From Steroidobacteraceae bacterium (GTDB lineage Bacteria > Pseudomonadota > Gammaproteobacteria > Steroidobacterales > Steroidobacteraceae), in NCBI GenBank assembly GCA_036734505.1, contig DAIMYL010000001.1, positions 56-64,055 on the forward strand: DNA of 64,000 bases, given 5' to 3'. The notes beneath the pieces were generated by a model. It was not told where the DNA came from. It was given only the letters and a program-made list of their open reading frames with translations, and ran no database searches. The position numbers were made by a program, and so were the translations under genes. Within the stretch, counting starts at the first letter, position 1. Each line of letters starts with the position of its first letter. Positions 14,564-34,399 of the stretch are shown here, piece by piece.

Positions 14564-16064
<1,501 letters not shown>

Positions 16065-16068
<4 letters not shown>

Positions 16069-18854
16069 GCGCCATCATCGACGATCGTGACCTCGGTACG
16101 CCGCCGTCGCGTTCCACCCAGCGCGTGACGATAGAGATCGACGGCATGCCGGTGCAGGTGCCCGCGGGCACCTCGGTGATGCGGGCCGCGGCCGAGGCCG
16201 GCATCTCGATCCCCAAGCTCTGCGCCACCGACACCCTGCAGGCCTTCGGTTCGTGCCGGCTGTGCCTCGTCGAGATCGAGGGCCGCAACGGCACGCCGGC
16301 GTCCTGCACGACCCCCGTCGCCGAGGGCATGAAGGTCCACACCCAGACCGGCAAGCTCAAGTCGCTCCGGCGCGGCGTCATGGAGCTCTACATCTCCGAC
16401 CATCCGCTCGACTGCCTGACCTGTTCGGCCAACGGCGACTGCGAGCTGCAGGACATGGCCGGCGCGGTGGGCCTGCGCGAGGTGCGCTACGGCTACGACG
16501 GCGCCAACCATCTCGAGGCCGAGAAGGACGAGTCGAACCCGTACTTCACCTTCGACCCCTCGAAGTGCATCGTCTGTTCGCGCTGCGTGCGCGCCTGCGA
16601 CGAAGTGCAGGGCACCCTCGCGTTGACGATCTCCGGCCGCGGCTTCGAGTCCAAGGTCGCGGCGAGCGTCGACGAGAAGTTCATCGACTCCGAGTGCGTC
16701 TCCTGCGGCGCCTGCGTGAAGGCCTGCCCGACGGCGACGCTCATCGAGAAGAGCGTCATCGAGATCGGCCAGCCCGAGCGCTCGGTGCTCACCACCTGCG
16801 CCTACTGCGGCGTCGGCTGCACCTTCAAGGCCCAGGTGCGCGGCAACGAGGTCGTGCGCATGGTGCCGCACGACGACGGCAAGGCGAACCGCGGCCACTC
16901 CTGCGTCAAGGGGCGTTTCGCCTGGGGCTACGCGACCCACCCGGACCGCGTGCTCTCGCCGCTCGTCCGCGACCGCATCAGCGACCCGTGGCGCGAGGCG
17001 AGCTGGGATGAGGCCATCGGCCGCATCGCCTCCGAGTTCCGCCGCCTGCAGTCGCAGTACGGCAAGAACTCGGTGGGCGCGGTGACCTCCTCGCGCTGCA
17101 CCAACGAGGAGACCTTCCTCGTCCAGAAGATGGTGCGCGCCGTGTTCGGCAACAACAACGTCGACACCTGCGCACGCGTCTGCCATTCGCCGACGGGTTA
17201 CGGCCTCAAGCAGGCCTTCGGCACCTCGGCCGGCACCCAGGACTTCGACTCGGTCGCCGAGGCCGATGTCATCGTGGTCATCGGCGCCAACCCGACCGAC
17301 GGCCACCCGGTGTTCGCGTCGCGCATGAAGCGTCGGCTGCGCGAGGGCGCGAAGCTCATCGTGGTGGACCCGCGCCGCATCGACCTCGTGCGCACGCCGC
17401 ACATCGAGGCCAGCCACCACCTGCAGCTGCGCCCCGGCACCAATGTCGCCGTGGTGAACGCGATCGCCCATGTCATCGTCACCGAAGGTCTCGTCGACGA
17501 GCGTTTCGTGCACGAGCGCTGCGACCTCGCGGAGTTCTCCACCTGGGCGTCGTTCGTCGCCGAACCGCGCAACAGCCCCGAGGCGACCGAGGCGGTGACC
17601 GGCGTGCCGGCGGCGGAGCTCCGTGCCGCGGCGCGGCTCTACGCCACGGGCGGCAACGGCGCCATCTACTACGGGCTCGGCGTCACCGAGCACAGCCAGG
17701 GCACCACCACCGTCATGGCGATCGCGAACCTCGCGATGGCCACCGGCAACCTCGGTCGGCCGGGCGTGGGCGTCAACCCGCTGCGCGGCCAGAACAACGT
17801 CCAGGGCGCCTGCGACATGGGTTCCTTCCCGCATGAGTTCGCGGGCTACCGCCATGTGTCGGACGACACCGCGCGGGAGGTCTTCGAGTCCGTCTGGGGC
17901 GTGGCGCTCGAGTCGGAGCCTGGTCTGCGCATCCCCAACATGTTCGATGCCGCCCTCGACGGCAGCTTCAAGGGCATGTTCATCCAGGGCGAGGACTTCG
18001 CGCAGTCGGATCCCGACACCCAGCATGTGGCCGAGGCGCTCTCCGCCATGGAGTGCGTCGTGGTGCACGACCTGTTCCTCAACGAGACGGCCAAGTACGC
18101 GCATGTCTTCCTGCCGGGCGCGTCCTTCCTCGAGAAGGACGGCACCTTCACCAACGCCGAGCGGCGCATCAGCCGCGTGCGCAAGGTGATGCCGCCGCGC
18201 GCGGGCCTCGCGGATTGGCAGGCCGTGATGAAGGTCTGCCAGGCGCTCGGCCACGCCATGCACTACGACCATCCGTCGCAGATCATGGACGAGATCGCGC
18301 GCACCACGCCCTCGTTCACCGGCGTGAGCTACGCCAAGCTCGACCAGTTGGGGTCGATCCAGTGGCCCTGCAACGAGAAGGCGCCGGAGGGCACGCCGGT
18401 CATGCACATCGGCGGCTTCGCCCGCGGCAAGGGGCGGTTCGTGGTGACGGAGTATGTCCCCACCGAGGAGCGCTCCACCGCGCGTTTCCCGCTGCTGCTC
18501 ACCACCGGCCGTATCCTGTCGCAGTACAACGTGGGCACGCAGACGCGGCGCACGGCGAACCAGCAGTGGCATGACGCCGACCGGCTCGAGATCCATCCGC
18601 ATGACGCCGAGCAGCGCGGCATCCGTCCCGGCGATCGCGTGCGGGTGATGAGCCGCACCGGTGCCACCGAGCTGCGCGCGGAGGTCAGCGACCGTGTCGC
18701 GCCCGGCGTGGTCTACACCACCTTCCACCACCCGGACACGCAGATCAACGTCGTGACCACGGACAACTCCGACTGGGCGACCAACTGCCCCGAGTACAAG
18801 GTCACCGCCGTCCAGGTGCTGCCGACGAATGGGCCTCCCGCCGCCCGCGGTTGA
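16065..18854 (+). CDS. fdsA: NAD-dependent formate dehydrogenase alpha subunit (Fe-S + Mo-bisPGD catalytic subunit)
   Basis: ATGA overlap with fdsB. It has an N-terminal 2Fe-2S (CRLCLVEIEG), 4Fe-4S clusters (CIVCSRCVRAC, CVSCGACVKACP) and a molybdopterin domain (TTCAYCGVGC). There is no in-frame TGA, so the active-site residue is Cys rather than Sec. Confidence 0.9.
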
Positions 18855-19644
18855 GCTGCCGCGGCTCGCGGTCAGCAGCGCGGTCGGCAGGTCGGCGGGC
18901 GCCGGCGGCACCCGCTCGCTGCCGGAGGAGGTCGCGATCGCGCTGACCTACAACCGCGCGTCCTACGCGGTGATGATGGCGACGCCGCTCGACATCGAGG
19001 ATTTCGGCGTCGGCTTCTCGCTCAACGAGGGGATCATCGCCTCGCCCTCGGAGCTCGCCGAGATCGAGGTGGTGGGCGTCGAGCTCGGCATCGAACTGCG
19101 CATGACCCTGGCGGGCGAGTCGGCCGAGCGGACCGCCGAGCGCCGACGCCGCCTCGCGGGGCCTGTCGGCTGCGGGCTCTGCGGCGTCGAGCGCCTCGAG
19201 GAGGCGCTGCGTCCGCTGCCGCCGGTATCGGCGGCGCTGACGGTGTCACCGGAGGATGTGCGCGCGGCGCTGGCGGAGCTCGCCGCGCTGCAGGCGCTCA
19301 ACCGCGCGACCCGCGCCGTGCATGCCGCCGGATTCTGGCGGCCGGGCAGGGGCGTCGTCGCCGTGCGCGAGGATGTCGGTCGGCACAACGCGCTCGACAA
19401 ACTCGCCGGTGCGCTGGCGCGTGCGGGCGAGGCGGCGGCCGAGGGCATGATCGTCATCTCGAGCCGCGTCTCGATCGAGATGGTGCAGAAGGCGGCCATG
19501 ATGGGTGCGGGCATCCTCGTCGCCGTCTCGGCGCCGACGGCGCTCGCGGTGCGTTCGGCCGACGCCGCGGGGCTGACATTGGTCGCGGTCGCGCGCGAGG
19601 ACGGGTTCGAGGTGTTCAGCGGGGCGCAGAGGATCAGGACATGA
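18829..19644 (+). CDS. fdhD: Formate dehydrogenase accessory sulfurtransferase FdhD/FdsC
   Basis: VGCGLCG motif and ...GRHNALDKL... typical of FdhD. It overlaps the fdsA 3' end by 26 nt. Confidence 0.85.
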   Translation: MGLPPPAVELPRLAVSSAVGRSAGAGGTRSLPEEVAIALTYNRASYAVMMATPLDIEDFGVGFSLNEGIIASPSELAEIEVVGVELGIELRMTLAGESAERTAERRRRLAGPVGCGLCGVERLEEALRPLPPVSAALTVSPEDVRAALAELAALQALNRATRAVHAAGFWRPGRGVVAVREDVGRHNALDKLAGALARAGEAAAEGMIVISSRVSIEMVQKAAMMGAGILVAVSAPTALAVRSADAAGLTLVAVAREDGFEVFSGAQRIRT

Positions 19645-19865
19645 AGACCGAGAAGCTCGTACGGATGGCCAACCAGATCGCCGGGTTCTTCTCCCATGAG
19701 GGGCCGGAGCGGGGCGCCGCCAGCACCGCCGACCATCTGAAGAAGTTCTGGGACCCGCGCATGCGCGCCGAGATCGCGGCCGCGGTCGCCGAGGGCCGCG
19801 CCACCGGGCTCGATCCGATCGCGCTCGCCGCGGTCAGGGAGATCGCGGCGCCGCGCCCGAACTGA
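19641..19865 (+). CDS. fdsD: Formate dehydrogenase delta subunit
   Basis: A 74-aa protein, MKTEKLVRMANQIAGFF...HLKKFWDPRMR, resembling FdsD. ATGA overlap with fdhD. Confidence 0.75.
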   Translation: MKTEKLVRMANQIAGFFSHEGPERGAASTADHLKKFWDPRMRAEIAAAVAEGRATGLDPIALAAVREIAAPRPN

Positions 19866-20910
19866 GCGCCTTCAGGATCTCTGCGGTATCGCAGACGCCG
19901 ACCACGCGATCCCCGTCCGAGACCAGCACCGCTCGCCCCGATGCTTCGCGCAGACGGATGAGGCCCTGCAGGTCCGCGTCCGCCGCGATCACCGGCAGCG
20001 TCCCGTCATGCGGCACCGAGGGGTCGAGCGGCCGCATGACCATCCCCGCCGTCAGCGCCGTCAAGGGGTTCATGTGCTGCACGAACTCCGCGACGCGGGG
20101 GTCCGCCGGACGCAGCACGATGTCCTGCGGCGTGCCCGTCTGCACGATCCTGCCCTGGTCCATGATCGCGATCCGGTCGCCGATGCGCAGCGCTTCGTCG
20201 AGGTCGTGGCTGACGAAGAGGATCGTCTTGCGCACCCGCTCCTGCAGCCGCAGCAGTTCGTCCTGCAGCCGGCCGCGGATCAACGGGTCGAGCGCCGAGA
20301 ACGGTTCGTCCATCAACAGGATGCCGGCCTCGGTCGCGAAGGCGCGAGCGAGACCCACGCGCTGCTGCATGCCGCCCGACAGCTCGTCGATGCGGCGCTT
20401 GCCCCAGTCGGCGAGCCCGACGAGCTCGAGCTTCTCCGCCACGATGCGCGCGCGTCCGGCGCGCGGTTCGCCGCGCAGCTCGAGACCGAGCGCGACGTTG
20501 TCCTCGACGCTGCGCCAGGGCAGCAGCGCCGCCTGCTGGAACACCATGCTGATGCGCCGCCGCCGCGCCGCCGACAGCGCTGCGGCGTCGCAGCGCGTGA
20601 TGTCCACGGCGCCCTCGGCGCCGTCCAGCAGCACCTGACCGCGGGTCGCGCGCGTCAGGCCGTTGGCGGTGCGCAGCAGCGTCGATTTGCCGGAGCCGGA
20701 GAGGCCCATGACCACGCAGATCTCGCCGGGGGCGACCGCGAGGTTCGCGTCGCGCACGGCGACCGTCACGCCGCAGTCGGCGGCGACCTGCGCGGTCTCC
20801 GTACCGGCGGTCAGCGCGGCGAGGGCGCGGCGCAGGGCCTCGGCGCCTGCTCTGCCGGTCGCACGCGGGTAGATGACATCGACACCGCGGAACTCCAGGG
20901 CGGCGCTCAT
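19834..20910 (-). CDS. proV: Glycine betaine/proline-type ABC transporter ATP-binding protein with C-terminal CBS pair
   Basis: Walker A GLSGSGKST, signature LSGGMQQRVGLARA and a C-terminal CBS-like region. ATGA overlap with the upstream permease gene. Confidence 0.9.
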   Translation of the reverse strand: MSAALEFRGVDVIYPRATGRAGAEALRRALAALTAGTETAQVAADCGVTVAVRDANLAVAPGEICVVMGLSGSGKSTLLRTANGLTRATRGQVLLDGAEGAVDITRCDAAALSAARRRRISMVFQQAALLPWRSVEDNVALGLELRGEPRAGRARIVAEKLELVGLADWGKRRIDELSGGMQQRVGLARAFATEAGILLMDEPFSALDPLIRGRLQDELLRLQERVRKTILFVSHDLDEALRIGDRIAIMDQGRIVQTGTPQDIVLRPADPRVAEFVQHMNPLTALTAGMVMRPLDPSVPHDGTLPVIAADADLQGLIRLREASGRAVLVSDGDRVVGVCDTAEILKALSSGAAPRSP

Positions 20911-22823
20911 CGGCCCGTCCCCTTGTCGCGCGGCCGGCTCAAGCGGTCGAGCACGATGGCGAGCAGCACGATGGCGATGCCGGCCTCGAAGCCGACATCC
21001 ACCTGCACGCTGTTGAGCGCGCGCACCACCGGCACGCCGAGCCCGCCGGCGCCGACCAACGCCGCGATCACCACCATCGACAGGCTCAGCATGATGCACT
21101 GCGTGATGCCGGCGAAGATCGAGGGCAGGGCGCAGGGCAGCTCGATCTTCCAGAGCCGCTGCCACTTCGTCGCGCCGAAGGCCTCGCCCGCCTCCCGCAT
21201 CGGACGCGGCACGCCCGTGATGCCGAGGTGCGTCAGGCGCACCGGTGCCGGCAGCGCGAAGATCACCGTGGAGATGAGACCCGGCACGACCCCGAGCCCG
21301 AACAGCACCAGCGTCGGGATCAGGTACACGAACGTCGGCAGAGTCTGCATGAGGTCGAGCACAGGGCGCAGCGCCGCGTAGAGCCGTGGTCGGTGCGCCG
21401 CGGCGATGCCGAGCGGCACACCGATCGCCGTCGCTGCGAGCGTCGCCACGGTCACCAGGGCGACGGTCTCGACGGTCGCCGCCCAGTAGCCCTGGTTCAT
21501 GATGAAGAGCAGGGCCGCCACGACGAAGGCGACCAGCGGCACCGAGCGCTGGAGGATCCAGGCGAGCGCCGCCGCCGCCAGCACCAGCAGCCAGGAGGGC
21601 AGGGCCTTGAGCAGCGCGTGCACGCCTTCGACGCTGCCGCTCACGACGCGGGAGACGAGATCGAAGAAGGGCTTCCAGTTCTCCTGCGCATGCTGGATGG
21701 CGTCGCCGATGACGCGACCGACCGGGATCTTGTGTCCGCCGACGACGCGCTCGAGATCCCACGCCCCGGCTGCCGTGCCGCCCGCGGCCGATCCGGCGAA
21801 TCCGTCGATGGGCGAGCCGTCCGCCCGCGTCACGCCTTCCAGCAGCGGCGCGAGCGCCTGCGGGTTCGCGCGCAGCCATGCCGCAGCGGACTCCTCAGGC
21901 GCGAGCTTGCGGTTGAGGATGCCGTCCATCAGGTCGTTCTCCATCGCGCCGGTGAACGACAGGTTGCGCAGGAAGCGGCCGACATTCGAGCATTCCTGTA
22001 GATAGCCCTTGCGCACGACCGTGTGGATGATCGCGCCGCCGAAGTCCGGGCCGAAGGTGTCGTCGCCGCCCGAGAGATAGCGCATGTCGTAGCGCTTGTT
22101 CATCGGGTGCGGCTGCCAGCCGAAGAACACGATGGGTTCGCGTGCGTTGTAGGCGCGCTCGACCTGGGCGAGCATGCCCTGTTCGCTGGATTCCACCAGC
22201 GTGAAGCCTCCGAGCCCGAAGCGGTCCGCTTCGATGAGCTCGATCATCATCCGGTTGCCGTCGTTGCCGGGCTCGATGCCGTACATCTTGCGCTTCAGGG
22301 GTTCGGCGAACTTCGCGATGTCCGCGAAATCGCGCAGCCCCTGCTCGTAGAGGTAAGCCGGCACGGCGAGGGTGTACTTCGCCTCGGTCATGTTGGCGCG
22401 CACGACCTCGATCGAGCCGTCGTCGAGGTAGGGCTGGCGATCGGCCTTCTGTGAGGGCATCCAGTTGCCGAGGAAGACATCGATGTCGCGGTTGCGCAGG
22501 GAGGCGAAGGTGACGGGCAGCGAGAGCACCGTGACCTTGGGCTCGTAGCCGAGCTGACGCAGCACATGGCTCGCGAAGCCCGTGGTCGCGGTGACATCGG
22601 TCCAGCCGATGTCTGACATGCGGACGACGCGGCAGCTCGCGGGCTCGGCGGCGGTGGCCGCGGCCGCCGGCGCGCCGGCGGCGGGGTCCGAGGCCTGACC
22701 GGGCGCCGCCACGCAGAGGCTGACCAGCAGCCCGCAGAGCGCGGCAAGAACGCTTGACCGAGGCCGGCGACGCACGGCAACATCGGTTCCGGTTCGCTGC
22801 GGATTGAACGGTGATTCAATCAT
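20907..22823 (-). CDS. Fused ProX-like substrate-binding domain (N-terminal) + ProW-like permease (C-terminal) of a betaine/choline ABC importer
   Basis: A single 638-aa ORF. It starts with a signal/anchor (VLAALCGLLVSLCVAAPGQA). Residues about 60-330 are ProX-like (MSDIGWTDVTATTGFASHVL...VFLGNWMP). Residues about 350-638 are a multi-TM ABC permease (EAA-like region ...MREAGEAFGATKWQRLWKIELP). Confidence 0.85.
   Translation of the reverse strand: MIESPFNPQRTGTDVAVRRRPRSSVLAALCGLLVSLCVAAPGQASDPAAGAPAAAATAAEPASCRVVRMSDIGWTDVTATTGFASHVLRQLGYEPKVTVLSLPVTFASLRNRDIDVFLGNWMPSQKADRQPYLDDGSIEVVRANMTEAKYTLAVPAYLYEQGLRDFADIAKFAEPLKRKMYGIEPGNDGNRMMIELIEADRFGLGGFTLVESSEQGMLAQVERAYNAREPIVFFGWQPHPMNKRYDMRYLSGGDDTFGPDFGGAIIHTVVRKGYLQECSNVGRFLRNLSFTGAMENDLMDGILNRKLAPEESAAAWLRANPQALAPLLEGVTRADGSPIDGFAGSAAGGTAAGAWDLERVVGGHKIPVGRVIGDAIQHAQENWKPFFDLVSRVVSGSVEGVHALLKALPSWLLVLAAAALAWILQRSVPLVAFVVAALLFIMNQGYWAATVETVALVTVATLAATAIGVPLGIAAAHRPRLYAALRPVLDLMQTLPTFVYLIPTLVLFGLGVVPGLISTVIFALPAPVRLTHLGITGVPRPMREAGEAFGATKWQRLWKIELPCALPSIFAGITQCIMLSLSMVVIAALVGAGGLGVPVVRALNSVQVDVGFEAGIAIVLLAIVLDRLSRPRDKGTGR
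22803..22820. promoter_or_regulatory. Inverted repeat ATTGAA-N6-TTCAAT, candidate BetI (TetR-type) operator
   Basis: ATTGAACGGTGATTCAAT is a perfect 6-bp inverted repeat directly abutting, and overlapping, the first codons of the binding-protein/permease gene (start codon 22821-22823). It sits in the region divergent from betI. Confidence 0.4.
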
Positions 22824-22838
22824 GCGGATTCGACCTCT

Positions 22839-22875
22839 GAAAAGTTATATAAACTATTGTTTTATATGTCTATCC
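22839..22875. promoter_or_regulatory. AT-rich divergent promoter region between the ABC importer operon and betI
   Basis: GAAAAGTTATATAAACTATTGTTTTATATGTCTATCC is strikingly AT-rich in a GC-rich context. It contains an imperfect inverted repeat, ATATAAAC...GTTTTATAT. Confidence 0.4.
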
Positions 22876-22939
22876 GCGCAGAGTCCGATCACCGAATCGA
22901 CACTCCGCGCGCAGCCTCACCAGACCGAGGGTAGCCCCT

Positions 22940-25048
22940 TTGAACGACAACAGAAACTCCCCCAACGGCGCGCCCAACCGCGGCGGTGACGCCACCCGCC
23001 GTCAGCAGCTCATCGAGGTCACCCTCGAAAGTCTGGCAGAAGTGGGTATCCAGGGCACGACTCTCGCACAGATCGCGGGCAAGGCGGATGTCTCGCCGGG
23101 GCTGGTGGCGCATTACTTCGTCGACAAGGACGGGCTGCTGCAGGCCGCATTCCGCGAACTGCTGACGCGCCTGCGGGAGCAGACCCGATGGCGGTTGACC
23201 GCGGCCGGTAGTCCGCTCGACCGTCTGCGGGCCTACATCGAGGCGAGTCTCTCGCCGGAGTGTCTGCGCTCCGCCGACAGCCGTGCCTGGCTCGCCTATT
23301 GGAGCCAGGTGCATTCCTCGCCGGGCATCGCCCGTATCCAGCGCATCTACCAGCGCCGCATCGAGTCCAACCTGCGCGCGGCGCTGCGGCCCCTCGTACC
23401 CGAGGTCTCGCTCGCCAGCCACGCCGCCAACATCGCCGCGCTGATCGACGGCGCATGGCTGCAGGCGGCCCTGGCGCCGCGTCCGGCAGGCGACAGCCGC
23501 GCGATCTGCGAGCGCGTGCTGTCGATGGTGTACGCCGCGATCGGCCAGTCGGCCGCGGACGCCGCCGCAGTCGGAGCGTCGGCGGCCGCGGGTCCCGGGG
23601 CGGTGTCGACCCCGGTGCGCCGCAAAGCCTCGCCCGTGCGCGGCGGTCTGCTCCCGAGCTACAACCCGGCCACCGGCGAACTGCTCGCCGAACTGCCTGT
23701 CGCCGGCGCCGAGGAGATCGACGAGGCCGTCCGCCGTGCCCGCGCCGCGCAGCCCGCCTGGGCCGCGCTCAGCGGCACCGAGCGCTCGCGCGTCCTGCGC
23801 CGGGTGTCCGACCTGCTGCGCGAGCACAACGACCGGCTCTCGCTCATCGAGATGCGGGACACCGGCAAACCCATCCAGGAGACGAAGGTCGTCGACATCG
23901 TCTCGGGCGCGGAGTGCTTCGAGTACTTCGCCTCGATGGCCACCGGCGCCGCGGGCGAGCACATCGACCTCGGCACGGCGGGTTTCGGCTACACGCGGCG
24001 CGAGCCGCTCGGCGTGGTGGGCGGCATCGGCGCATGGAACTACCCCATGCAGACCTGCTGCTGGAAGACCGCGCCCGCGCTCGCCTTCGGCAACGCGATG
24101 ATCTTCAAGCCCGCCGAGCTCACGCCGCTCAGCGCCGCCGAGATGCCCGCCCTCATGAAGGAAGCCGGCGTGCCGGACGGCATCTTCCAGGTGGTGCAGG
24201 GTGCCGTCGACACCGGGCGGCTGCTGGTCGGCCATCCCGGCATCGCCAAGGTGTCGCTCACGGGCGCGGTCGAGACGGGCCGCGCGGTGATGGGCGCCGC
24301 GGCGCCGACGCTCAAGCATGTCACCCTGGAGCTCGGCGGCAAGTCGCCGCTGATCATCTTCCCCGACGCCGATCTCGACAACGCGGTCTCCGGCGCGCTG
24401 CTCGGCAACTTCTACTCGGCGGGCGAGGTGTGCTCGAACGCGACCCGCGTGTTCGTGCACCGCTCGATCAAGCAGGAGTTCCTGAAGCGGCTGCTCGCGC
24501 GGGTCGAGAAGATGAAGATCGGCGACCCGGCCGATCCGGCCACGCAGGTCGGCTCGCTCATCTCCGAGGAGCACCTGCGCAAGGTCATGTCCTACATCGA
24601 GCGCGGCCAGGCCGAGGGCGCGCGGATGTTGATCGGCGGCAAGCGCCTGACCGAGGGCGCGCTCGCGCGCGGCTTCTTCGTGACGCCGACCGTCTTCGAC
24701 CAATGCCGCGACGACATGGCCATCGTGCGCGAGGAGATCTTCGGGCCGGTGATGACGGTGCTCGACTTCGACGACGAGGAGGAGGCCATCGGGCGCGCCA
24801 ACGACACCCACTTCGGGCTCTCGGCGGGCGTGTTCACGCAGGACCTCAACCGCGCGCACCGCGTCATCGGCCAGCTGCAGGCCGGCAGCTGCTGGATCAA
24901 CCACTACAACATCTGTCCGATGGAGCTGCCCTTCGGCGGCTACAAGCACTCGGGCATCGGCCGCGAGAACGGCCGCATCACGATGGAGTACTACACCCAG
25001 CTCAAGAGCGTCTACGTCGCCAAGGGCGGCATCGACTCTCCTTACTGA
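22940..25048 (+). CDS. betI/betB: Single ORF encoding BetI (TetR-family choline-responsive repressor, about aa 1-200) fused in frame to BetB (betaine aldehyde dehydrogenase, about aa 220-701)
   Basis: TTG start at 22940 with GAGGG 9 nt upstream. The BetI-like HTH is RRQQLIEVTLESLAEVGIQGTTLAQIAGKADVSPGLVAHYF. No stop codon in this frame follows the BetI domain. An Ala/Gly-rich linker leads into an ALDH domain (YNPATGE, ELGGKSP, GEVCSNATR, EEIFGPV). Internal GTGs at 23603, 23615 and 23636 could also start a separate BetB. Confidence 0.8.
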   Translation: MNDNRNSPNGAPNRGGDATRRQQLIEVTLESLAEVGIQGTTLAQIAGKADVSPGLVAHYFVDKDGLLQAAFRELLTRLREQTRWRLTAAGSPLDRLRAYIEASLSPECLRSADSRAWLAYWSQVHSSPGIARIQRIYQRRIESNLRAALRPLVPEVSLASHAANIAALIDGAWLQAALAPRPAGDSRAICERVLSMVYAAIGQSAADAAAVGASAAAGPGAVSTPVRRKASPVRGGLLPSYNPATGELLAELPVAGAEEIDEAVRRARAAQPAWAALSGTERSRVLRRVSDLLREHNDRLSLIEMRDTGKPIQETKVVDIVSGAECFEYFASMATGAAGEHIDLGTAGFGYTRREPLGVVGGIGAWNYPMQTCCWKTAPALAFGNAMIFKPAELTPLSAAEMPALMKEAGVPDGIFQVVQGAVDTGRLLVGHPGIAKVSLTGAVETGRAVMGAAAPTLKHVTLELGGKSPLIIFPDADLDNAVSGALLGNFYSAGEVCSNATRVFVHRSIKQEFLKRLLARVEKMKIGDPADPATQVGSLISEEHLRKVMSYIERGQAEGARMLIGGKRLTEGALARGFFVTPTVFDQCRDDMAIVREEIFGPVMTVLDFDDEEEAIGRANDTHFGLSAGVFTQDLNRAHRVIGQLQAGSCWINHYNICPMELPFGGYKHSGIGRENGRITMEYYTQLKSVYVAKGGIDSPY

Positions 25049-25067
25049 TCGGGTCCGGAGCGGGGAT

Positions 25068-26735
25068 ATGGGCGTGACGAAGGACGAGTACGACCACATC
25101 ATCATCGGCGCCGGCTCGGCCGGCTGCGTGCTGGCCGCGCGCCTGACCGAGGACCCTGCGAACCGGGTGCTGCTGCTCGAGTACGGCGGCTCGGACCGCT
25201 CGGTGTTCATCCGCATGCCCTCGGCGCTCGCCATCCCGATGAACCGCAAGCGCTACAACTGGTACTACCACACCGAGCCCGAGCCCGGGCTCGGCGGGCG
25301 CAGCCTGCACACGCCGCGCGGCAAGGTGCTCGGCGGCTCGTCCTCGATCAACGGCATGGTGTACATCCGCGGCAACCCCTTCGACTTCGAGCGTTGGCAG
25401 GAGGAAGGGGCGCGCGGTTGGGGTTATCCCGATGTGCTGCCGTACTTCAAGCGCGCCGAGACCCGAGACGAGGGCGGCGACGCCTATCGCGGCGACCGCG
25501 GCCCGCTGCAGACGCGCTACGGCAGCCTCGAGAACCCGCTGCATGCGGCGTGGCTCGCCGCCGGTGAAGAGGCGGGCTATCCGCTCACGGACGACATCAA
25601 CGGCTTCCAGCAGGAAGGCTTCGGCCGCTTCGACATGACCGTGGGCCGCGGCCAACGCTGCAGCGCGGCGGTGGCCTACCTGCACCCTGCGCGCTCGCGC
25701 CCCAACCTCACGGTGCTGAGCGGTGCGCTCGCGACCCGTATCCTGCTCGAGGGCGGGCGCGCCGTCGGCGTCGAGTTCCATCGCGGCGGTGCGCTGCACA
25801 CCGTGCGGGCGCGACGCGAGGTCATCGTCAGCGGCGGTCCGATCAACTCACCGCAGCTGCTGAAGCTGTCCGGCATCGGTCCTGCAGCGGAGCTCGAGTC
25901 CCACGGCATCGCCGTGCGGCATGCGTTGCCCGGCGTCGGCGAGAACCTGCAGGACCATCTCGAGTTCTATTTCCAGGTCGCTTGCCGCGAGCCGGTGACG
26001 CTCTACTCCGTGATGAACCCGATCGCCAAGGGCTGGATCGGCGCGCGTTGGCTTCTGACCCGCACCGGGCTCGGCGCGACCAACCACTTCGAGACCGGCG
26101 GGTTCATCCGCAGCCGCGCCGGTGTGCGCTACCCGGACATCCAGTACCACTTCCTGCCGCTCGCGGTCGCGTACGACGGTTCGAGCGGCGCCTCCGAGCA
26201 CGGTTTCCAGGCGCATGTGGGGCCGATGCGCACCAACAGCCGCGGCTGGGTGCGCCTGCGCTCGGCGGACCCCCGCGATCCGCCGCGCATCCTGTTCAAC
26301 TATCTGAGCACGCCCGAGGACATGCAGGAGATGCGCGCCTGCGTACGCCTGACGCGCGAGATCTTCGCGCAGCCCGCGTTCGCGCGTTGGCGCGGGCGAG
26401 AGATCCAGCCGGGCGAGGGCGTGACGGGCGACGCGGACATCGACGCCTTCGTGCGCCGTCATGTCGAGAGCGCCTACCACCCCTGCGGCACCTGCCGTAT
26501 GGGCGCCGCCGACGACCCGCTGGCGGTGGTCGACCCGGAGACGCGGGTGCGCGGGCTCGAGGGGCTGCGGGTGGTGGACTCGTCCATCATGCCATCGGTC
26601 ACCACCGGCAACCTCAACGCACCGACCATCATGCTGGCCGAGAAGGCCGCGGACCATATCCTCGGCCGCCCGATGCTCGAGCGTGCGACGGTCGATTGGT
26701 ACGAAGCGCCGGATTGGCGCAGCGCGCAGCGCTGA
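25068..26735 (+). CDS. betA: Choline dehydrogenase (GMC oxidoreductase)
   Basis: [25 protein letters not shown] motif, with GMC signatures throughout and a typical length of 555 aa. Confidence 0.92.
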
Positions 26736-26741
26736 GGCGGA

Positions 26742-27308
26742 TCAGCCCTCGCGGCCGGTGAGATCCTGCGCGGCCTCGGCGAGCCAGCGCTGCAGGTAGT
26801 CCGCGAACGAGCGCCAGACCTCGATGTGGAACTCCTGCTCGCCGCGCCGCCAGAGCACGATGTCGGTCTTGTTGAAGAGCGTGCGCGTGCCGCTGCCGAC
26901 CGGGAAACGGGCCGGGTCGAGGTCGAGGGGGCAGCCGCAGTTGAGCAGGTCCGCGGCGAACGGCGCGGTCAGCCGCAGGCCGACCTGACGCTGCGTCACA
27001 TCCACCAAAGAATGCGCATGACCGCTGAGGTCGGCCTCGAGCCGCGCGCCGAGCGCCGCGGCGTCGTCCCGCCAGGACAGCAGCAGCCGCTCATCCGGGC
27101 CGAGCCAGATCAGGGTCGTGGCATCGTCGCCCGTCGTGCGCCCGGCGGCGTCCGGATCGGGGATGCCGAGCGCCGCCGCGGCGGCCGCGAGCGCCGCAGG
27201 GCCGCCCTGAAGCACGAAGCGCGCGGCGACCGCGACCGGCTGCAGCAAGTTCGCCCTCGGTGATGCGGTCGACGGAGCGTTCGGCAGGCGGGTGGAGGTC
27301 TCAGACAT
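26742..27308 (-). CDS. soxG: Heterotetrameric sarcosine oxidase gamma subunit
   Basis: A 188-aa protein that is the last gene of a soxBDAG-order operon. Its start overlaps the soxA stop (27301-27308). Confidence 0.8.
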   Translation of the reverse strand: MSETSTRLPNAPSTASPRANLLQPVAVAARFVLQGGPAALAAAAAALGIPDPDAAGRTTGDDATTLIWLGPDERLLLSWRDDAAALGARLEADLSGHAHSLVDVTQRQVGLRLTAPFAADLLNCGCPLDLDPARFPVGSGTRTLFNKTDIVLWRRGEQEFHIEVWRSFADYLQRWLAEAAQDLTGREG

Positions 27309-30300
27309 TCAGCCGCGCTCCCTTCGGGTCGTAGAACACCGGCGCGCAGACCTCGACCGGGATCTCGCCGCCCGGCATGGGCACATGCAGCGTCCGGCCG
27401 ATGCGGGCGCGTCCGCCTGCGACCACCGCCAACGCGATGGAGCGGCCGAGCGCGGCGCTCATGTAGGACGAGGTGACATGGCCGATGAGCTTCATCGGCG
27501 GCGCCTGCCCCGGTACATCGACGATCTGCGCGCCTTCCTCGAGCACCACGCGCGGATCGCGGGTCAGCAGGCCCACGAGCTGCTTGCGGTCCGGCGACAG
27601 CATCGAGGGGCGGGCGAGTGCGCGCTTGCCGACGAAGTCCGCCTTGGCCTTGCCGATGGCCCAGGACAAGCCGACATCGTCCGGGGTCACCGTGCCGTCG
27701 GTGTCCTGGCCGATGATGATGAAACCCTTCTCGGCACGCAGCACATGCATGGTCTCGGTGCCGTAGGCCGTGAGCCCGTGCGCCTTGCCGGCTTCGCAGA
27801 TGGCCTCGAGCGCCGCCGCACCGCGATCCGCCGGCACATTGACCTCGAAGCCGAGCTCGCCCGTGAAGCTGACGCGGAACAGCATCATCGGGATGCCGCG
27901 CAGCGTGCCATGCACCACCGCCATGTGCGGCAGCGCCGCGGCGGAGATGTCGAGCCCGTCGACGAGCGGCGCCAGGACTTCGCGGGCGCGCGGACCCTGC
28001 ACCGCGATGACCGCCCATTGCTCGGTGGTGGAGGTGAGCCAGACATCGAGGTCGGTCCACTCGGTCTGCCTGTAGTCCTCCATCATGGCGAGGACGCGGG
28101 CCGCGCCGCCGGTGGTGGTCGTGACATGGAAGCGGTCAGGCGCGAGGCGCGCCACTACGCCGTCGTCGTACACGAAGCCATCGTCGCGCAGCAGCACGCC
28201 GTACTTGCAGCGGCCGACCGCGAGCTTGGACCAATCGTTCACATAGAGGCGGTCCATGAACGCCGTGGCGCCCGGTCCCGCGACCACGATCTTGCCGAGG
28301 GTCGAGGCGTCGAACACGCCGCAGCCCTCGCGCACCGCGCGGCACTCCCGCGCCACCGCCGCATGCATGTCCTCGCCCGCGCGCGGGAAGAAGCGCGCGC
28401 GCTTCCACATGCCGACATCCTCGAACACGGCACCTTGCCGTACCGCCCAGGCGTGCATGGGTGTGCGACGCACCGGGTCGAAGGACTCGCCGCGCGCCTG
28501 GCCCGCGAAGCTCGCGAAGGTGACGGGCGTGTAGGGCATGCGGAAGGTGGTGAGGCCGACCGCCGGGACGGGCTTGCCCAGCTCGCGTGCGGCGTGGTGC
28601 AGCGCGTTGAGGTTCGACATCTTGCCCTGGTCGGTGGCCATGCCGGTCGTCGTGTAGCGCTTGATGTGCTCGATCGACCGGAAGCCCTCGCGCATCGCGA
28701 GGTCGAGGTCCTTGAGCATCACATCGTGCTGGAAGTCGACGAAGGCCTTGGGGCCGGGTACCGCCGCCTCGGCGCGTGGCAGGCGGGTGGTCGAAGGCGC
28801 TGCCATGTCCTCGGTGGCCTCGAAGCGCAGATCCGCGCCCTCGAAGCCCGCGGCGCGCGCCGCCGCCGCACCTGCCGCAGCGCCGTCCTGCAGCGTCGCT
28901 GCGAGCCCGAAGATCCCGCGACAGGCGCCGACCGAGCGCTCGTTCTCCGCGGACTCGCCGGGGATGAAGGCCTGCAGCGTCTCGTCGTATCGCAGCTTGC
29001 CGCGCGACTGCGAGAAGAGGTGGACGCTCGGTACATGTCCGCCCGCCACCAACAGCAGGTCGCAGTCGATGGAGCGATGCCCGGTCGGGCGTCCTGACGC
29101 ATCGAGGCGCGCGATCTCGACCGACGACACATGGTCGTAGCCGCGGGTGCCGAGCACCCGCGCACCGGTCTCGACGGCGATGCCGGCCGCGCGCGCGCGG
29201 GCCTGCCACCCGTCCTGCGGCGCGGGCGATGTCGCGGGGCTCAGGTCCACGATCTGCGCGACCGTGGCGCCGGCGGCCTGCATCTCGAGCGCGACGCGGT
29301 AGGCGCTGTCGCAGATCGTGGCGATGACCACGCGCCGGCCCGGCAGCACCGCCTGTTCATTGAGGTAACGCAGCGCCGCCCCGGCGAGCATCACGCCCGG
29401 ACGGTCGTTGCCCGGGAACACGAGCGGCTGCTCGATGGAGCCGGTCGCGAGCACCACCTGTCGCGCGCGCACCTGCCACAGGCGCTCACGCGCGAGACCG
29501 GCGGGCGGCGTCGCCAGATGGTCGGTCAGGCGTTCGCTCAAGCCGAGGTGGTTGTGCGGGAAGTAGCCGAACGCGGTGGTGCGGGGCAGCAACCGTACGC
29601 GCGGGTTGCGCCGCAGTTCGGCGACCGCAGAGGCCACCCACTCGTCGGCACCCGCCCCGTCGATGCGGGCGGAGCCGTCGGCGAGCAGCGAGCCGCCGAA
29701 CTCCGGTCGCTCGTCGCAGAGGATGACGCGAGCGCCGCCGCGGGAGGCGGCGAGGGCGGCGGCGAGGCCCGCGGGCCCCGCGCCGACGACCAGCACCTCG
29801 CAGTGCGCATGCTGCTGGGCGTAGCGGTCGGGGTCCGCGAGGCGCGGCGCTTCCCCGAGGCCCGCCATGCGACGGATCAGCGGTTCGTAGAGCCTGTGCC
29901 AGGCGCTGCGCGGCCACATGAAGGTCTTGTAGTAGAAGCCCGCCGGCAGCAGCGGCGAGAAGAGCTCCGCCATGCGCCCAAGATCGAAGCGCAGGCTCGG
30001 CCAACGGTTCTGGCTGACGGCGCAGAGACCGTCGTAGAGCTCGACCTGGGTCGCGCGCAGATTGGGCGTGGATCGGGCGTCGTCGCGGCGTACCGTGACG
30101 AGCGCCGAGGGTTCCTCGGGACCCGCCGTCATGATGCCGCGCGGACGGTGGTACTTGAACGAGCGGCCGACGAGGTGCACGCCGTTGGCGAGCAGCGCCG
30201 AGGCGAGCGTATCGCCCTGCAGCCCTTCGTAGGTCTTGCCGTCGAAGGTGAAACGGATCCTCCGGTCGCGGGCGACGCGACCGCCGGTGCTGAGGCGTGC

Positions 30301-30309
30301 GCCGCTCAT
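27301..30309 (-). CDS. soxA: Heterotetrameric sarcosine oxidase alpha subunit (with GcvT-like THF-binding domain)
   Basis: The internal ATG at 30309 gives MSGARLSTGG...FTFDGKTYEGLQGDTLASALLANGVHLVGRSFKYHRPRGI, the canonical SoxA N-terminus. Length about 1002 aa. Confidence 0.9.
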   Translation of the reverse strand: MSGARLSTGGRVARDRRIRFTFDGKTYEGLQGDTLASALLANGVHLVGRSFKYHRPRGIMTAGPEEPSALVTVRRDDARSTPNLRATQVELYDGLCAVSQNRWPSLRFDLGRMAELFSPLLPAGFYYKTFMWPRSAWHRLYEPLIRRMAGLGEAPRLADPDRYAQQHAHCEVLVVGAGPAGLAAALAASRGGARVILCDERPEFGGSLLADGSARIDGAGADEWVASAVAELRRNPRVRLLPRTTAFGYFPHNHLGLSERLTDHLATPPAGLARERLWQVRARQVVLATGSIEQPLVFPGNDRPGVMLAGAALRYLNEQAVLPGRRVVIATICDSAYRVALEMQAAGATVAQIVDLSPATSPAPQDGWQARARAAGIAVETGARVLGTRGYDHVSSVEIARLDASGRPTGHRSIDCDLLLVAGGHVPSVHLFSQSRGKLRYDETLQAFIPGESAENERSVGACRGIFGLAATLQDGAAAGAAAARAAGFEGADLRFEATEDMAAPSTTRLPRAEAAVPGPKAFVDFQHDVMLKDLDLAMREGFRSIEHIKRYTTTGMATDQGKMSNLNALHHAARELGKPVPAVGLTTFRMPYTPVTFASFAGQARGESFDPVRRTPMHAWAVRQGAVFEDVGMWKRARFFPRAGEDMHAAVARECRAVREGCGVFDASTLGKIVVAGPGATAFMDRLYVNDWSKLAVGRCKYGVLLRDDGFVYDDGVVARLAPDRFHVTTTTGGAARVLAMMEDYRQTEWTDLDVWLTSTTEQWAVIAVQGPRAREVLAPLVDGLDISAAALPHMAVVHGTLRGIPMMLFRVSFTGELGFEVNVPADRGAAALEAICEAGKAHGLTAYGTETMHVLRAEKGFIIIGQDTDGTVTPDDVGLSWAIGKAKADFVGKRALARPSMLSPDRKQLVGLLTRDPRVVLEEGAQIVDVPGQAPPMKLIGHVTSSYMSAALGRSIALAVVAGGRARIGRTLHVPMPGGEIPVEVCAPVFYDPKGARLNV

Positions 30310-30587
30310 CGCAGACCCTCGGGCGGCTTCTCGCCGGCCTTGTAGGTGGCGAGGAAGCGGTCGGTGGTGGTGTCCCGCAGCGCGTTGAAGAACCGGCCGC
30401 AGCCGCGGGTGTGGCGCCAACGCTCGGCATGCACGCCTTTGGCGTTGGTCCGCAGGTAGAGATAGGCCGCCCAACCGTCATCGCTCACCGCCGACGGATC
30501 GGCGGGGCGCGCGATGTGCGCCTCGCCACCGTAGGCGAACTCGAGCTCGGGGCGCTCACCGCAATGGGGGCAACGGATCAGCAGCAT
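30306..30587 (-). CDS. soxD: Sarcosine oxidase delta subunit
   Basis: A 93-aa protein, MLLIRCPHCGERPELEFAYGGEAH...HTRGC, with Zn-binding Cys/His typical of SoxD. ATGA-type overlap with soxA. Confidence 0.9.
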   Translation of the reverse strand: MLLIRCPHCGERPELEFAYGGEAHIARPADPSAVSDDGWAAYLYLRTNAKGVHAERWRHTRGCGRFFNALRDTTTDRFLATYKAGEKPPEGLR

Positions 30588-30594
30588 GGCGGGC

Positions 30595-31854: not shown

Positions 31855-31866
31855 CGTCGCTCCGCG

Positions 31867-34326: not shown

Positions 34327-34343
34327 CCGACGAGTGTAGCCGG

Positions 34344-34399
34344 GGACATCCGGGCGACCAATCCAAATGCGACGATGGGATGTCCGAATTGGACATCCC
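34344..34399. promoter_or_regulatory. Cluster of three GGACATCC/GGATGTCC motifs, including a perfect 9-bp inverted repeat. Candidate operator in the dmgdh / regulator divergent region.
   Basis: GGACATCC at 34344-34351. GGGATGTCC-GAATT-GGACATCCC at 34377-34399. The cluster lies between the dmgdh start (34326) and the regulator coding region. Confidence 0.4.

What the first reader, a model, noticed from the sequence alone, without database searches (positions are those of the whole stretch)
22940..25048. betI and betB form a single uninterrupted ORF: a TetR repressor fused to betaine aldehyde dehydrogenase
**Seen:**
- The frame that encodes a full BetI-like TetR protein (HTH at the N-terminus, about 200 aa) has no stop codon.
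- It runs through an Ala/Gly-rich segment (...IGQSAADAAAVGASAAAGPGAVSTPVRRKASPVRGG...) straight into a complete aldehyde dehydrogenase with all catalytic motifs. The total is 701 aa.
- I translated the other two frames across 23521-23680, and neither encodes an alternative BetB N-terminus.
- The usual first ALDH strand (LYI-G-type sequence before the NPATGE motif) is missing. This looks as if a deletion removed the betI stop, the spacer and the first betB codons.

**Established:** in characterised betIBA operons the two genes are separate.

**Inference:**
- Any ribosome starting at betI must produce a repressor-enzyme chimera.
- This would be functionally analogous to PutA, where a catabolic enzyme is also the pathway's DNA-binding regulator.
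- Internal GTGs (23603, 23615, 23636) might additionally yield free BetB.
Basis: partly seen in the sequence, partly recalled or inferred. Interest (0 to 1): 0.6.

Follow-up and report, generated by a model that had tools for sequence, protein, structure and literature searches.

The report
Conserved BetI–BetB repressor-enzyme fusion gene
The choline repressor BetI and the enzyme betaine aldehyde dehydrogenase really are one 702-residue protein here, but this is a selection-maintained fusion shared by at least 77 other species' genomes, already in public databases though never studied, not a strain-specific deletion or an assembly error.

Summary
Window 22940-25048 (+) is one 702-codon ORF: BetI-type TetR repressor (residues ~16-215), a disordered Ala/Gly/Pro-rich linker (~216-235), and a complete betaine aldehyde dehydrogenase that lacks the usual first beta-strand.

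It is not an error or a recent deletion:
- The same in-frame arrangement occurs in 77 of 80 species genomes fetched. Most are Steroidobacteraceae MAGs, but cultured Alphaproteobacteria have it too, including Azorhizobium caulinodans ORS 571, Ancylobacter, Kaistia and Bosea.
- The linker varies widely in length, yet the frame is always kept.
- Both halves are under strong purifying selection (dN/dS ~0.05); the linker is relaxed (~0.3).
- No conserved internal start for a free BetB exists.
- A TTGA-N8-TCAA betI-type box is about 580-fold enriched upstream of these genes. The only copy in the 64-kb window lies at 22804-22819.

Most likely this is a self-repressing, choline-responsive repressor tethered to the pathway's second enzyme, with the two modules acting independently. 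A PutA-like coupling is neither shown nor favoured: sister lineages have deleted BetI or replaced it with FdsD.

UniRef already labels members "Multifunctional fusion protein". Some database entries list only a shorter BetB-only protein for the same gene. I found no paper describing the fusion.

This is a new member of a database-known but uncharacterised fusion family, of moderate interest.

The parts
22804..22819 (.). betI-type operator box 1, TTGAACGGTGATTCAA. It is the core of the ATTGAA-N6-TTCAAT palindrome at 22803-22820 and abuts the ATG of the divergent importer gene.
   Evidence: It is the only match to TTGAA-N6-TTCAA (up to 1 mismatch) in the 64-kb window. TTGA-N8-TCAA boxes occur 77 times in 25.9 kb upstream of fusion genes against 3 times in 586 kb elsewhere. 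The half-sites resemble the footprinted betI box ATTGACG*CGTCAAT (PMC12442346).
22840..22876 (.). AT-rich patch between the divergent genes, presumed to be the promoter region (inferred).
   Evidence: The sequence was read, and close relatives L001-L004 have an AT-rich patch in the same position. The sigma-70 consensus scan found no match, so the promoter assignment is inference only.
22927..22942 (+). Shine-Dalgarno-like GAGGG (22927-22931) followed 8 nt later by the TTG start codon (22940-22942). TTGAAC is a half-site remnant of operator box 2.
   Evidence: The TTG is the only in-frame start between the upstream stop and the HTH. Other Steroidobacteraceae loci have a full box, TTGAAYnnnCAATCAA, beginning at the same SD-preceded TTG.
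22940..25048 (+). betI-betB fusion gene, 702 codons plus stop.
   Evidence: A 100% identical 702-aa protein is already in the public collection (P0002).
22985..23587 (+). BetI module (residues ~16-216): TetR HTH at residues 24-70 and BetI-type ligand/dimerisation domain at 92-194, with the last helix running to residue 216.
   Evidence: Pfam scores 42.5 and 80.5 bits. NCBIfam BetI equivalog NF001978 scores 176.3 bits against a cut-off of 118. The AF2 model is all-helical here with pLDDT 81-91 over residues 21-170. dN/dS is 0.04-0.06.
23585..23644 (+). Flexible Ala/Gly/Pro-rich linker (residues ~216-235).
   Evidence: AF2 pLDDT is below 50 for residues 216-234. dN/dS is 0.28-0.34. The DGxWL-to-NPATG distance ranges from 52 to 90 aa among species with the frame always kept. 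Pooled linkers are 28% Ala, 12% Gly and 11% Pro.
23645..25045 (+). Betaine aldehyde dehydrogenase module (residues 236-702), without the canonical first beta-strand. Catalytic Asn367 (24038-24040), Glu464 (24329-24331) and Cys498 (24431-24433).
   Evidence: NCBIfam BetB equivalog NF009725 scores 739.8 bits against a cut-off of 593, matching profile positions 22-488. The best PDB hits are solved BADHs 6WSA, 3R31 and 2WME, with E-values of 1e-174 or better. N367 and C498 are invariant and E464 at least 90% conserved in 72 fusions.
25068..26735 (+). betA (choline dehydrogenase, GMC oxidoreductase), 19 nt downstream of the fusion gene.
   Evidence: Pfam GMC_oxred_N and GMC_oxred_C.
19834..22823 (-). 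Divergent choline/betaine ABC importer: fused OpuAC binding domain plus permease (20907-22823) and the ATPase (~19834-20910).
   Evidence: Pfam OpuAC + BPD_transp_1, and ABC_tran. Relative L081 has the same synteny.

Best explanation
The gene encodes one bifunctional polypeptide. An N-terminal BetI-type TetR repressor is joined by a disordered linker of roughly 20-35 residues to a complete NAD(P)-dependent betaine aldehyde dehydrogenase.

The BetI module presumably dimerises and binds the TTGA-N8-TCAA box or boxes in the region between the importer genes and the fusion gene with betA. It would repress both until choline binds. The BetB module then oxidises betaine aldehyde made by BetA.

The two modules most likely work independently, as they do when encoded separately. 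The fusion probably arose once, through loss of the betI stop ahead of an adjacent betB. It has since been inherited as a unit, with some transfer between Alpha- and Gammaproteobacteria. The first ALDH strand later became dispensable and decayed into linker in this lineage.

- **Shown:** the single frame, conservation, selection on both halves, the disordered linker, operator enrichment, and the absence of internal start signals.
- **Inferred:** repression, the choline response, oligomeric state, and independence of the modules.
For: - **Same open frame elsewhere:** 77 of 80 species loci, found with a junction-spanning query, have one open frame covering both halves. The distance between anchor motifs is 52-90 aa with the frame always kept.
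- **Selection:** dN/dS is 0.04-0.06 for BetI, 0.05-0.06 for ALDH and 0.28-0.34 for the linker.
- **Conserved residues:** HTH and catalytic residues are invariant or nearly so in 72 fusions.
- **No internal start:** Shine-Dalgarno-like motif plus in-frame start in 7 of 71 loci against 27% of control windows; none in the window.
- **Operator:** about 580-fold enrichment upstream, and one unique box in the window.
- **Structure:** AF2 gives two confident modules and a disordered linker.
- **Family membership:** curated BetI and BetB equivalog models are both passed.
- **Inherited as a unit:** pairwise identities of the two halves correlate, r = 0.84.
- **Single clade:** all fusions form one clade (SH-aLRT 97) that excludes the canonical unfused BetBs sampled. 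The 50%-identity library holds one full-length representative.
Against: - There is no experimental evidence for the protein, its size, its DNA binding or its activity in any member.
- Repressors are usually needed at far lower levels than catabolic enzymes, so 1:1 synthesis is unusual.
- Proteolytic separation after translation cannot be excluded.
- In the window's own clade the BetI half is the most divergent (~50% identity to the others, against a median of 72% among all pairs). Operator box 2 has decayed to a half-site.
- Sister lineages lost BetI altogether, so the regulatory role may be weakening here.
- Unfused BetBs were sparsely sampled in the tree, and the tree used the quick method.
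Confidence: 0.8

Rival explanations
1. Trigger-enzyme coupling, PutA-like. DNA binding by the BetI module would be controlled by the state of the attached dehydrogenase (substrate, NAD(H) or oligomerisation). Alternatively, a BADH tetramer carrying two BetI dimers would bridge two operators into a repression loop.
For: - The architecture is that of known enzyme-repressors.
- The fusion has been kept in frame across two proteobacterial classes.
- Ten of 73 loci have two perfect boxes 146-178 bp apart.
- Solved BADHs are deposited with 2-18 chains per sequence. That BADHs are tetramers or dimers is general knowledge.
Against: - The linker is disordered and variable in both length and sequence, which argues against a fixed interface.
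- Most loci, including the window, have only one perfect box.
- BetB persists with BetI deleted or swapped for FdsD.
- BetB-like ALDHs tolerate unrelated N-terminal domains.
Confidence: 0.1
2. Two proteins are made after all, either by internal initiation in the linker or by proteolytic cleavage of the linker. The fusion would then be only a transcript- or precursor-level feature.
For: - In-frame GTG codons exist in the window's linker.
- Some database entries list BetB alone from internal starts in the same species (P0122, P0192, P0175, P0173, P0140).
- Disordered linkers are protease-accessible.
Against: - No conserved start or Shine-Dalgarno-like motif sits ahead of the ALDH domain; such signals are depleted relative to control windows.
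- The short entries begin at residues that are V, L or I in the long form, which looks like model-driven start picking.
- If BetI were meant to terminate, a stop codon would be cheap to regain, yet 77 of 80 species lack one.
Confidence: 0.08
3. Assembly or sequencing artefact, or a recent strain-specific deletion creating a pseudo-fusion.
For: The window appears to come from an uncultured Steroidobacteraceae lineage, where MAG errors are possible.
Against: - Identical or near-identical 702-aa proteins come from independent ENA, NCBI and JGI assemblies.
- The same frame is found in 77 other species, including complete genomes of cultured bacteria.
- Both halves and the linker show coding-frame GC3 and purifying selection.
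Confidence: 0.02

Closest known systems
Database-recorded BetI-BetB fusions, e.g. Azorhizobium caulinodans ORS 571 (P0123, 700 aa) and members in Ancylobacter, Starkeya, Kaistia, Bosea, Faunimonas; UniRef label 'Multifunctional fusion protein'
   Same: They have the same three Pfam domains in the same order and fall in one clade with the window's protein in the BetB tree. All collapse to a single full-length representative in the 50%-identity library. TTGA-N8-TCAA boxes lie upstream.
   Different: Most alphaproteobacterial members keep the first ALDH strand (N[HQ]IGG...); the window's protein has lost it. The window's BetI half is only ~47-53% identical to most others sampled outside its own clade. 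None has been studied experimentally, as far as four full-text searches show.
Canonical separate BetI and BetB of betIBA/betICBA operons (E. coli, Sinorhizobium meliloti, Ruegeria pomeroyi BetI1)
   Same: The window's protein passes the BetI and BetB equivalog models. betA lies downstream and a choline/betaine importer is divergently transcribed. The palindromic operator has TTGA...TCAA half-sites like the footprinted ATTGACG*CGTCAAT.
   Different: Here there is no stop between the two genes. The operator has a wider spacing (TTGA-N8-TCAA against TTGA-N4-TCAA in R. pomeroyi). The first BetB beta-strand is absent.
PutA and other trigger enzymes (BirA, NadR): enzymes that are also the DNA-binding regulator of their pathway (general knowledge)
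   Same: One polypeptide carries a DNA-binding domain and an enzyme of the regulated pathway.
   Different: In PutA, DNA binding responds to the enzyme's own redox and substrate state. Here the repressor has its own ligand domain, the linker is disordered, and no coupling is shown. The DNA-binding fold also differs (TetR HTH here, ribbon-helix-helix in PutA).
FdsD-BetB fusions of a sister lineage (P0047 and relatives, 557 aa; L082-L084)
   Same: The BetB module is 87% identical by tblastn, also lacks the first strand, and is also preceded by an Ala-rich linker. betA and soxG/soxA lie downstream in the same order.
   Different: The N-terminal partner is the formate dehydrogenase delta subunit. 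About 3.8 kb (window 19823-23649: the end of fdsD, the importer, BetI and the linker) is replaced by ~93 nt. This shows that N-terminal fusion partners of this BetB can change by simple deletion.

Membership tests
BetI (choline-responsive TetR-family repressor) | N-terminal TetR-type HTH plus BetI-type C-terminal domain, scoring above curated family cut-offs | tested here: met
   PF00440 scores 42.5 bits (cut-off 24) and PF13977 scores 80.5 (cut-off 27). NF001978 BetI equivalog scores 176.3 against a cut-off of 118. TIGR03384 falls just short, 182.7 against 201.3.
BetI (choline-responsive TetR-family repressor) | Palindromic betI box in the promoter region of its own operon | tested here: met
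   The box at 22804-22819 is unique in the window. Boxes are about 580-fold enriched upstream across 75 loci. The spacing differs from the R. pomeroyi box.
BetI (choline-responsive TetR-family repressor) | Binds DNA and is released by choline | not testable with these tools
   This needs EMSA or reporter assays.
BetB (betaine aldehyde dehydrogenase, ALDH superfamily) | Full ALDH fold with catalytic Cys, general-base Glu and oxyanion Asn, scoring above the equivalog cut-off | tested here: met
   NF009725 scores 739.8-741.6 against a cut-off of 593. TIGR01804 scores 656-658, slightly below 668.6, because the N-terminal strand is missing. N367, E464 and C498 are conserved. The AF2 ALDH module is confident outside residues 338-354 and 657-688.
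BetB (betaine aldehyde dehydrogenase, ALDH superfamily) | Canonical N-terminal first beta-strand (LYIxG-type) | tested here: not met
   The profile match starts at position 22. Standalone relatives P0072, P0074 and P0097, and some Ancylobacter fusions, lack it too. The strand is not catalytic, so this does not exclude BetB membership.
BetB (betaine aldehyde dehydrogenase, ALDH superfamily) | Genomic linkage to betA and choline uptake | tested here: met
   betA is 19 nt downstream and an OpuAC-type importer is divergent. Sarcosine oxidase, dimethylglycine dehydrogenase and a DJ-1/AraC-type regulator are nearby.
Trigger enzymes (PutA-like enzyme-repressors) | DNA-binding domain and pathway enzyme on one polypeptide | tested here: met
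Trigger enzymes (PutA-like enzyme-repressors) | Regulatory output depends on the enzyme's catalytic or substrate state | not testable with these tools
   Indirect evidence argues against it: the linker is disordered and variable, and BetI is lost or replaced in relatives.

The most novel reading that the evidence does not exclude
The tether is functional. A BADH oligomer would display two BetI dimers that bridge separate betI boxes, or gain avidity for one. Alternatively, betaine aldehyde or NAD(H) occupancy of the enzyme would modulate repression, so that the operon senses its toxic intermediate as well as choline. That would make this a TetR-family trigger enzyme.
Probability: 0.1. Interest if true: 0.7.

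Novelty: new member of a known kind. Interest (0 to 1): 0.38.

Why it matters
**Biology.** TetR-family repressors are, as far as I know, rarely fused to enzymes. Here such a fusion has been kept for a long evolutionary time in many soil and plant-associated bacteria, including a genetically tractable rhizobium, yet nobody appears to have tested it. That makes one question directly testable: what does tethering a dimeric repressor to an oligomeric enzyme, at 1:1 stoichiometry, do to induction dynamics?

**Annotation.**
- Fused genes are named only "betaine-aldehyde dehydrogenase", or are listed as a shorter protein from an unsupported internal start. In that case the repressor half would go unrecorded.
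- Genome-scale regulon or pathway reconstructions would then wrongly score these organisms as lacking betI.

**Caution.** The FdsD-BetB sister fusion shows that fusions at this N-terminus can arise by plain deletion, so a fusion on its own is weak evidence of functional coupling.

Tried and rejected
- **Within the window and flanks.** tblastn found no second copy in the 64-kb window, nor within about 4 kb of any fusion locus.
- **The repeat finder** missed the operator because its arms are short. A pattern search found it.
- **Promoter and terminator scan** of the intergenic region found nothing, so the promoter placement is inference only.
- **Literature.** Four full-text searches and two papers checked gave nothing on the fusion. 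The "tetr" hits in PMC12454647 were "tetramer".
- **50%-identity library** collapses the family to one representative, so it could not be used to count members.
- **dN/dS rows for L039 and L005/L004** are misaligned or saturated. Only L001-L003 were used.
- **Two-operator looping idea.** Only 10 of 73 loci have two perfect boxes, so this was demoted to the speculative case.
- **Assembly error or recent deletion:** rejected on conservation.
- **Fusion and strand loss in one deletion event:** rejected, because fusions that retain the first strand exist.
Full report
**1. Observation.**
- The ORF listing and translate confirm one ORF at 22940..25048 (+), with a TTG start and 702 codons.
- Pfam places TetR_N at residues 24-70, the BetI-type TetR_C_6 at 92-194 and Aldedh at 238-691, all in one frame.
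- Taken separately, the halves pass the NCBIfam equivalog models for BetI (NF001978, 176 bits against a cut-off of 118) and BetB (NF009725, 740 against 593).
- The BetB match starts at profile position 22, and alignments to solved BADHs (6WSA, 3R31) start at chain residues 19-33. The first ALDH strand is therefore indeed absent.
- Long ORFs are cheap in this GC-rich DNA: a 786-aa antisense ORF overlaps the gene. However, third-position GC is 0.86, 0.89 and 0.96 in BetI, linker and ALDH respectively.

**2. Not an artefact and not strain-specific.**
- A search restricted to the junction (residues 150-330) returned dozens of 90%-identity clusters of ~690-720 aa proteins with the same three domains. 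Identity ran down to 44%. The clusters came from NCBI, JGI, ENA and Logan assemblies and included a 100% identical 702-aa protein.
- A scan of one genome per species, using a junction-spanning alignment, kept 80 loci. All matched query residues 1-259 (or 3-259, 1-258) without interruption.
- In 77 of these 80 loci, one stop-free frame runs from the BetI HTH to the ALDH ELGGKS motif. Two of the remaining loci are cut by contig ends, and L079 has a frameshift.
- The hosts are mostly Steroidobacteraceae and other Gammaproteobacteria MAGs. The closest to the window is L001, Steroidobacteraceae bacterium EUL_167, at 98%.
- Cultured Alphaproteobacteria also carry the fusion: Azorhizobium doebereinerae, Ancylobacter radicis and A. 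dichloromethanicus, Xanthobacter sp., Aureimonas spp., Faunimonas pinastri and Novosphingobium sp. BW1. A second search added Azorhizobium caulinodans ORS 571, Starkeya, Kaistia, Bosea, Angulomicrobium and Methylobrevis.

**3. Selection and the linker.**
- The distance from the conserved DGxWL motif of BetI to the NPATG of BetB ranges from 52 to 90 residues among species, yet the frame is always kept.
- Against the close relatives L001-L003, dN/dS is 0.04-0.06 for BetI, 0.05-0.06 for ALDH and 0.28-0.34 for the linker.
- Pooled linkers are 28% Ala, 12% Gly, 11% Pro, 9% Ser and 8% Arg.
- HTH residues (T41, L42, I45, H58, F60, K63) and catalytic residues (N367, C498) are invariant in 72 fusions, and E464 is at least 90% conserved.
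- Pairwise identities of the two halves correlate with r = 0.84. This is what co-inheritance as a unit predicts.

**4. No signal for a separate BetB.**
- I scanned the 45 codons before NPATG for an in-frame ATG, GTG or TTG preceded by a Shine-Dalgarno-like tetramer.
- Seven of 71 loci had one, and the window had none. The rate in control windows inside the ALDH domain was 27%.
- The alignment shows no conserved Met or Val column in the linker.

**5. Operator.**
- The region between the fusion gene and the divergent importer contains TTGAACGGTGATTCAA at 22804-22819. This is the only match to TTGAA-N6-TTCAA, allowing up to 1 mismatch, in 64 kb.
- Across 75 loci, TTGA-N8-TCAA occurs 77 times in 25.9 kb of upstream sequence and 3 times in 586 kb elsewhere. 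Sixty-six loci have at least one.
- The half-sites resemble the DNase-footprinted betI box ATTGACG*CGTCAAT of Ruegeria pomeroyi (PMC12442346), but the spacing is wider.
- In many Steroidobacteraceae loci a second box, TTGAAYnnnCAATCAA, begins exactly at an SD-preceded TTG start codon. In the window and its closest relatives this second box has decayed to the half-site TTGAAC.
- Only 10 of 73 loci have two perfect boxes, 146-178 bp apart.

**6. Structure.**
- AlphaFold2 with 72 fusion sequences gave a mean pLDDT of 79.7 and pTM of 0.61.
- The TetR module is all-helical and confident (residues ~16-215).
- Residues 216-234 have pLDDT below 50.
- The ALDH module is confident from residue 237 onward. 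The exceptions are residues 338-354 and 657-688, which I take to be oligomerisation elements (an inference).
- The model is a monomer, so it says nothing about how BetI dimers sit on a BADH oligomer.

**7. Evolution.**
- I built a quick maximum-likelihood tree of ALDH domains from 89 rows.
- All fusions form one group with SH-aLRT 97. The group also holds the standalone BetBs P0072, P0074 and P0097 and the FdsD-BetB protein P0047.
- It excludes the canonical unfused BetBs that were sampled (P0239, P0229, P0244, P0245).
- Forms that keep the first strand (N[HQ]IGG..., mostly Alphaproteobacteria) lie outside a 67-row clade (support 97) in which the strand is missing.
- Ancylobacter oerskovii and A. 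sonchi fusions also lack the strand, while other Ancylobacter keep it. It was therefore lost repeatedly after the fusion.
- The 50%-identity library holds a single full-length representative, P0242.
- Unfused BetBs were sparsely sampled, so a single origin is likely but not proven.

**8. Derived lineages.**
- In L081 the synteny is the same (importer divergent, betA downstream), but BetB stands alone. It has a basic tail resembling the linker and no BetI within 5 kb.
- In L082-L084 the sister BetB is fused to FdsD. The window has fdsD at 19641-19865.
- L082 is collinear with window 18126-19822 and with window 23650-26885. About 3.8 kb, covering the importer, BetI and the linker, has been replaced by ~93 nt.
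- BetB-like ALDHs with other N-terminal partners also exist: Peptidase_C92, DUF302 and Gluconate_2-dh3.
- This N-terminus therefore tolerates fusion partners, and BetB does not need BetI in cis.

**9. Status in databases and the literature.**
- Sources name the fusions "betaine-aldehyde dehydrogenase", "transcriptional regulator BetI/TetR family" or, in UniRef, "Multifunctional fusion protein".
- For five species the collection also holds a shorter BetB-only entry.
- In four of these, the short entry is the exact C-terminal part of a long fusion entry. Its first residue is V, L or I in the long form (P0192/P0202, P0175/P0185, P0173/P0182, P0140/P0143).
- In the fifth, P0122 is 100% identical to the ALDH part of the fused ORF in locus L027.
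- These short entries look like model-driven start picks rather than evidence for a separate BetB.
- Four full-text searches found no paper describing the fusion.
- This scan's notes record the same fusion in two other genomes (e1-3865361, e1-4064032) and the palindrome in this window (e1-3823481).

**10. Mechanism.**
- *Best reading (0.8):* a self-repressing, choline-responsive BetI tethered by a flexible linker to a functional BADH, with the modules acting independently. The fusion would be a "Rosetta-stone" event caused by loss of the betI stop.
- *Rivals:*
  - PutA-like coupling or operator bridging (0.1).
  - Internal initiation or proteolytic separation (0.08).
  - Artefact (0.02).
- DNA binding, the choline response, enzyme activity and oligomeric state are all inferred, not shown.

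**11. Limits.** I therefore could not search the rest of this genome for another betI, nor check reads across the junction. Given the cross-species conservation, the read check is no longer decisive.

Noticed in passing
L082:5001-6674 (also L083, L084) against window 19823-23649: A sister lineage carries an FdsD-BetB fusion (557 aa). About 3.8 kb, covering the end of fdsD, the ABC importer, BetI and the linker, is replaced by ~93 nt of Ala-rich linker. The flanks are collinear with the window at ~78-79% DNA identity.
   Followed up: yes
L081:5001-6476: A standalone 491-aa BetB (P0072) nests inside the fusion clade. It has the same importer-betB-betA synteny, a basic tail resembling the linker, and no BetI within 5 kb. 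This looks like secondary loss of the repressor half.
   Followed up: partly
P0122/L027, P0192/P0202, P0175/P0185, P0173/P0182, P0140/P0143: For the same fused gene, public sources also list a short BetB-only protein (471-494 aa). In four of the five pairs it begins at an internal residue that is V, L or I in the long form. Annotation is inconsistent and can hide the BetI half.
   Followed up: partly
L038, L052, L057, L064, L030 around position 3710; window 22940-22955: In many Steroidobacteraceae loci the rare TTG start codon of the fusion gene is also the first three bases of a betI box (TTGAAYnnnCAATCAA), which may explain why TTG is conserved. The window retains only the TTGAAC half-site.
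   Followed up: partly
P0251, P0270, P0243, P0306: BetB-like aldehyde dehydrogenases also occur fused at the N-terminus to Peptidase_C92, DUF302 or Gluconate_2-dh3 domains.
   Followed up: no
L004 (CAMAQZ010000028.1): A MAG titled 'Klebsiella pneumoniae' carries a fusion gene that groups with the window's Steroidobacteraceae clade (ALDH module 90% identical). The record's taxonomic label is probably wrong.
   Followed up: no
L079:4481-5868: In a Parvibaculaceae MAG the BetB half of the fusion is split into two frames at ~4951. This is either a sequencing error or a pseudogene.
   Followed up: no
window 15861-19865 and 26742-35385: The fusion sits in a choline-to-glycine catabolic island: fdsA-fdhD-fdsD upstream; soxG, soxA and soxB, a dimethylglycine-dehydrogenase-like gene, and a DJ-1/AraC-type (GbdR-like) regulator downstream.
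   Followed up: partly
P0185, P0182 (Ancylobacter oerskovii, A. sonchi) against L047, L050: The first ALDH beta-strand is missing in some Ancylobacter fusions but present in others. The strand was therefore lost independently of the Steroidobacteraceae clade.
   Followed up: partly
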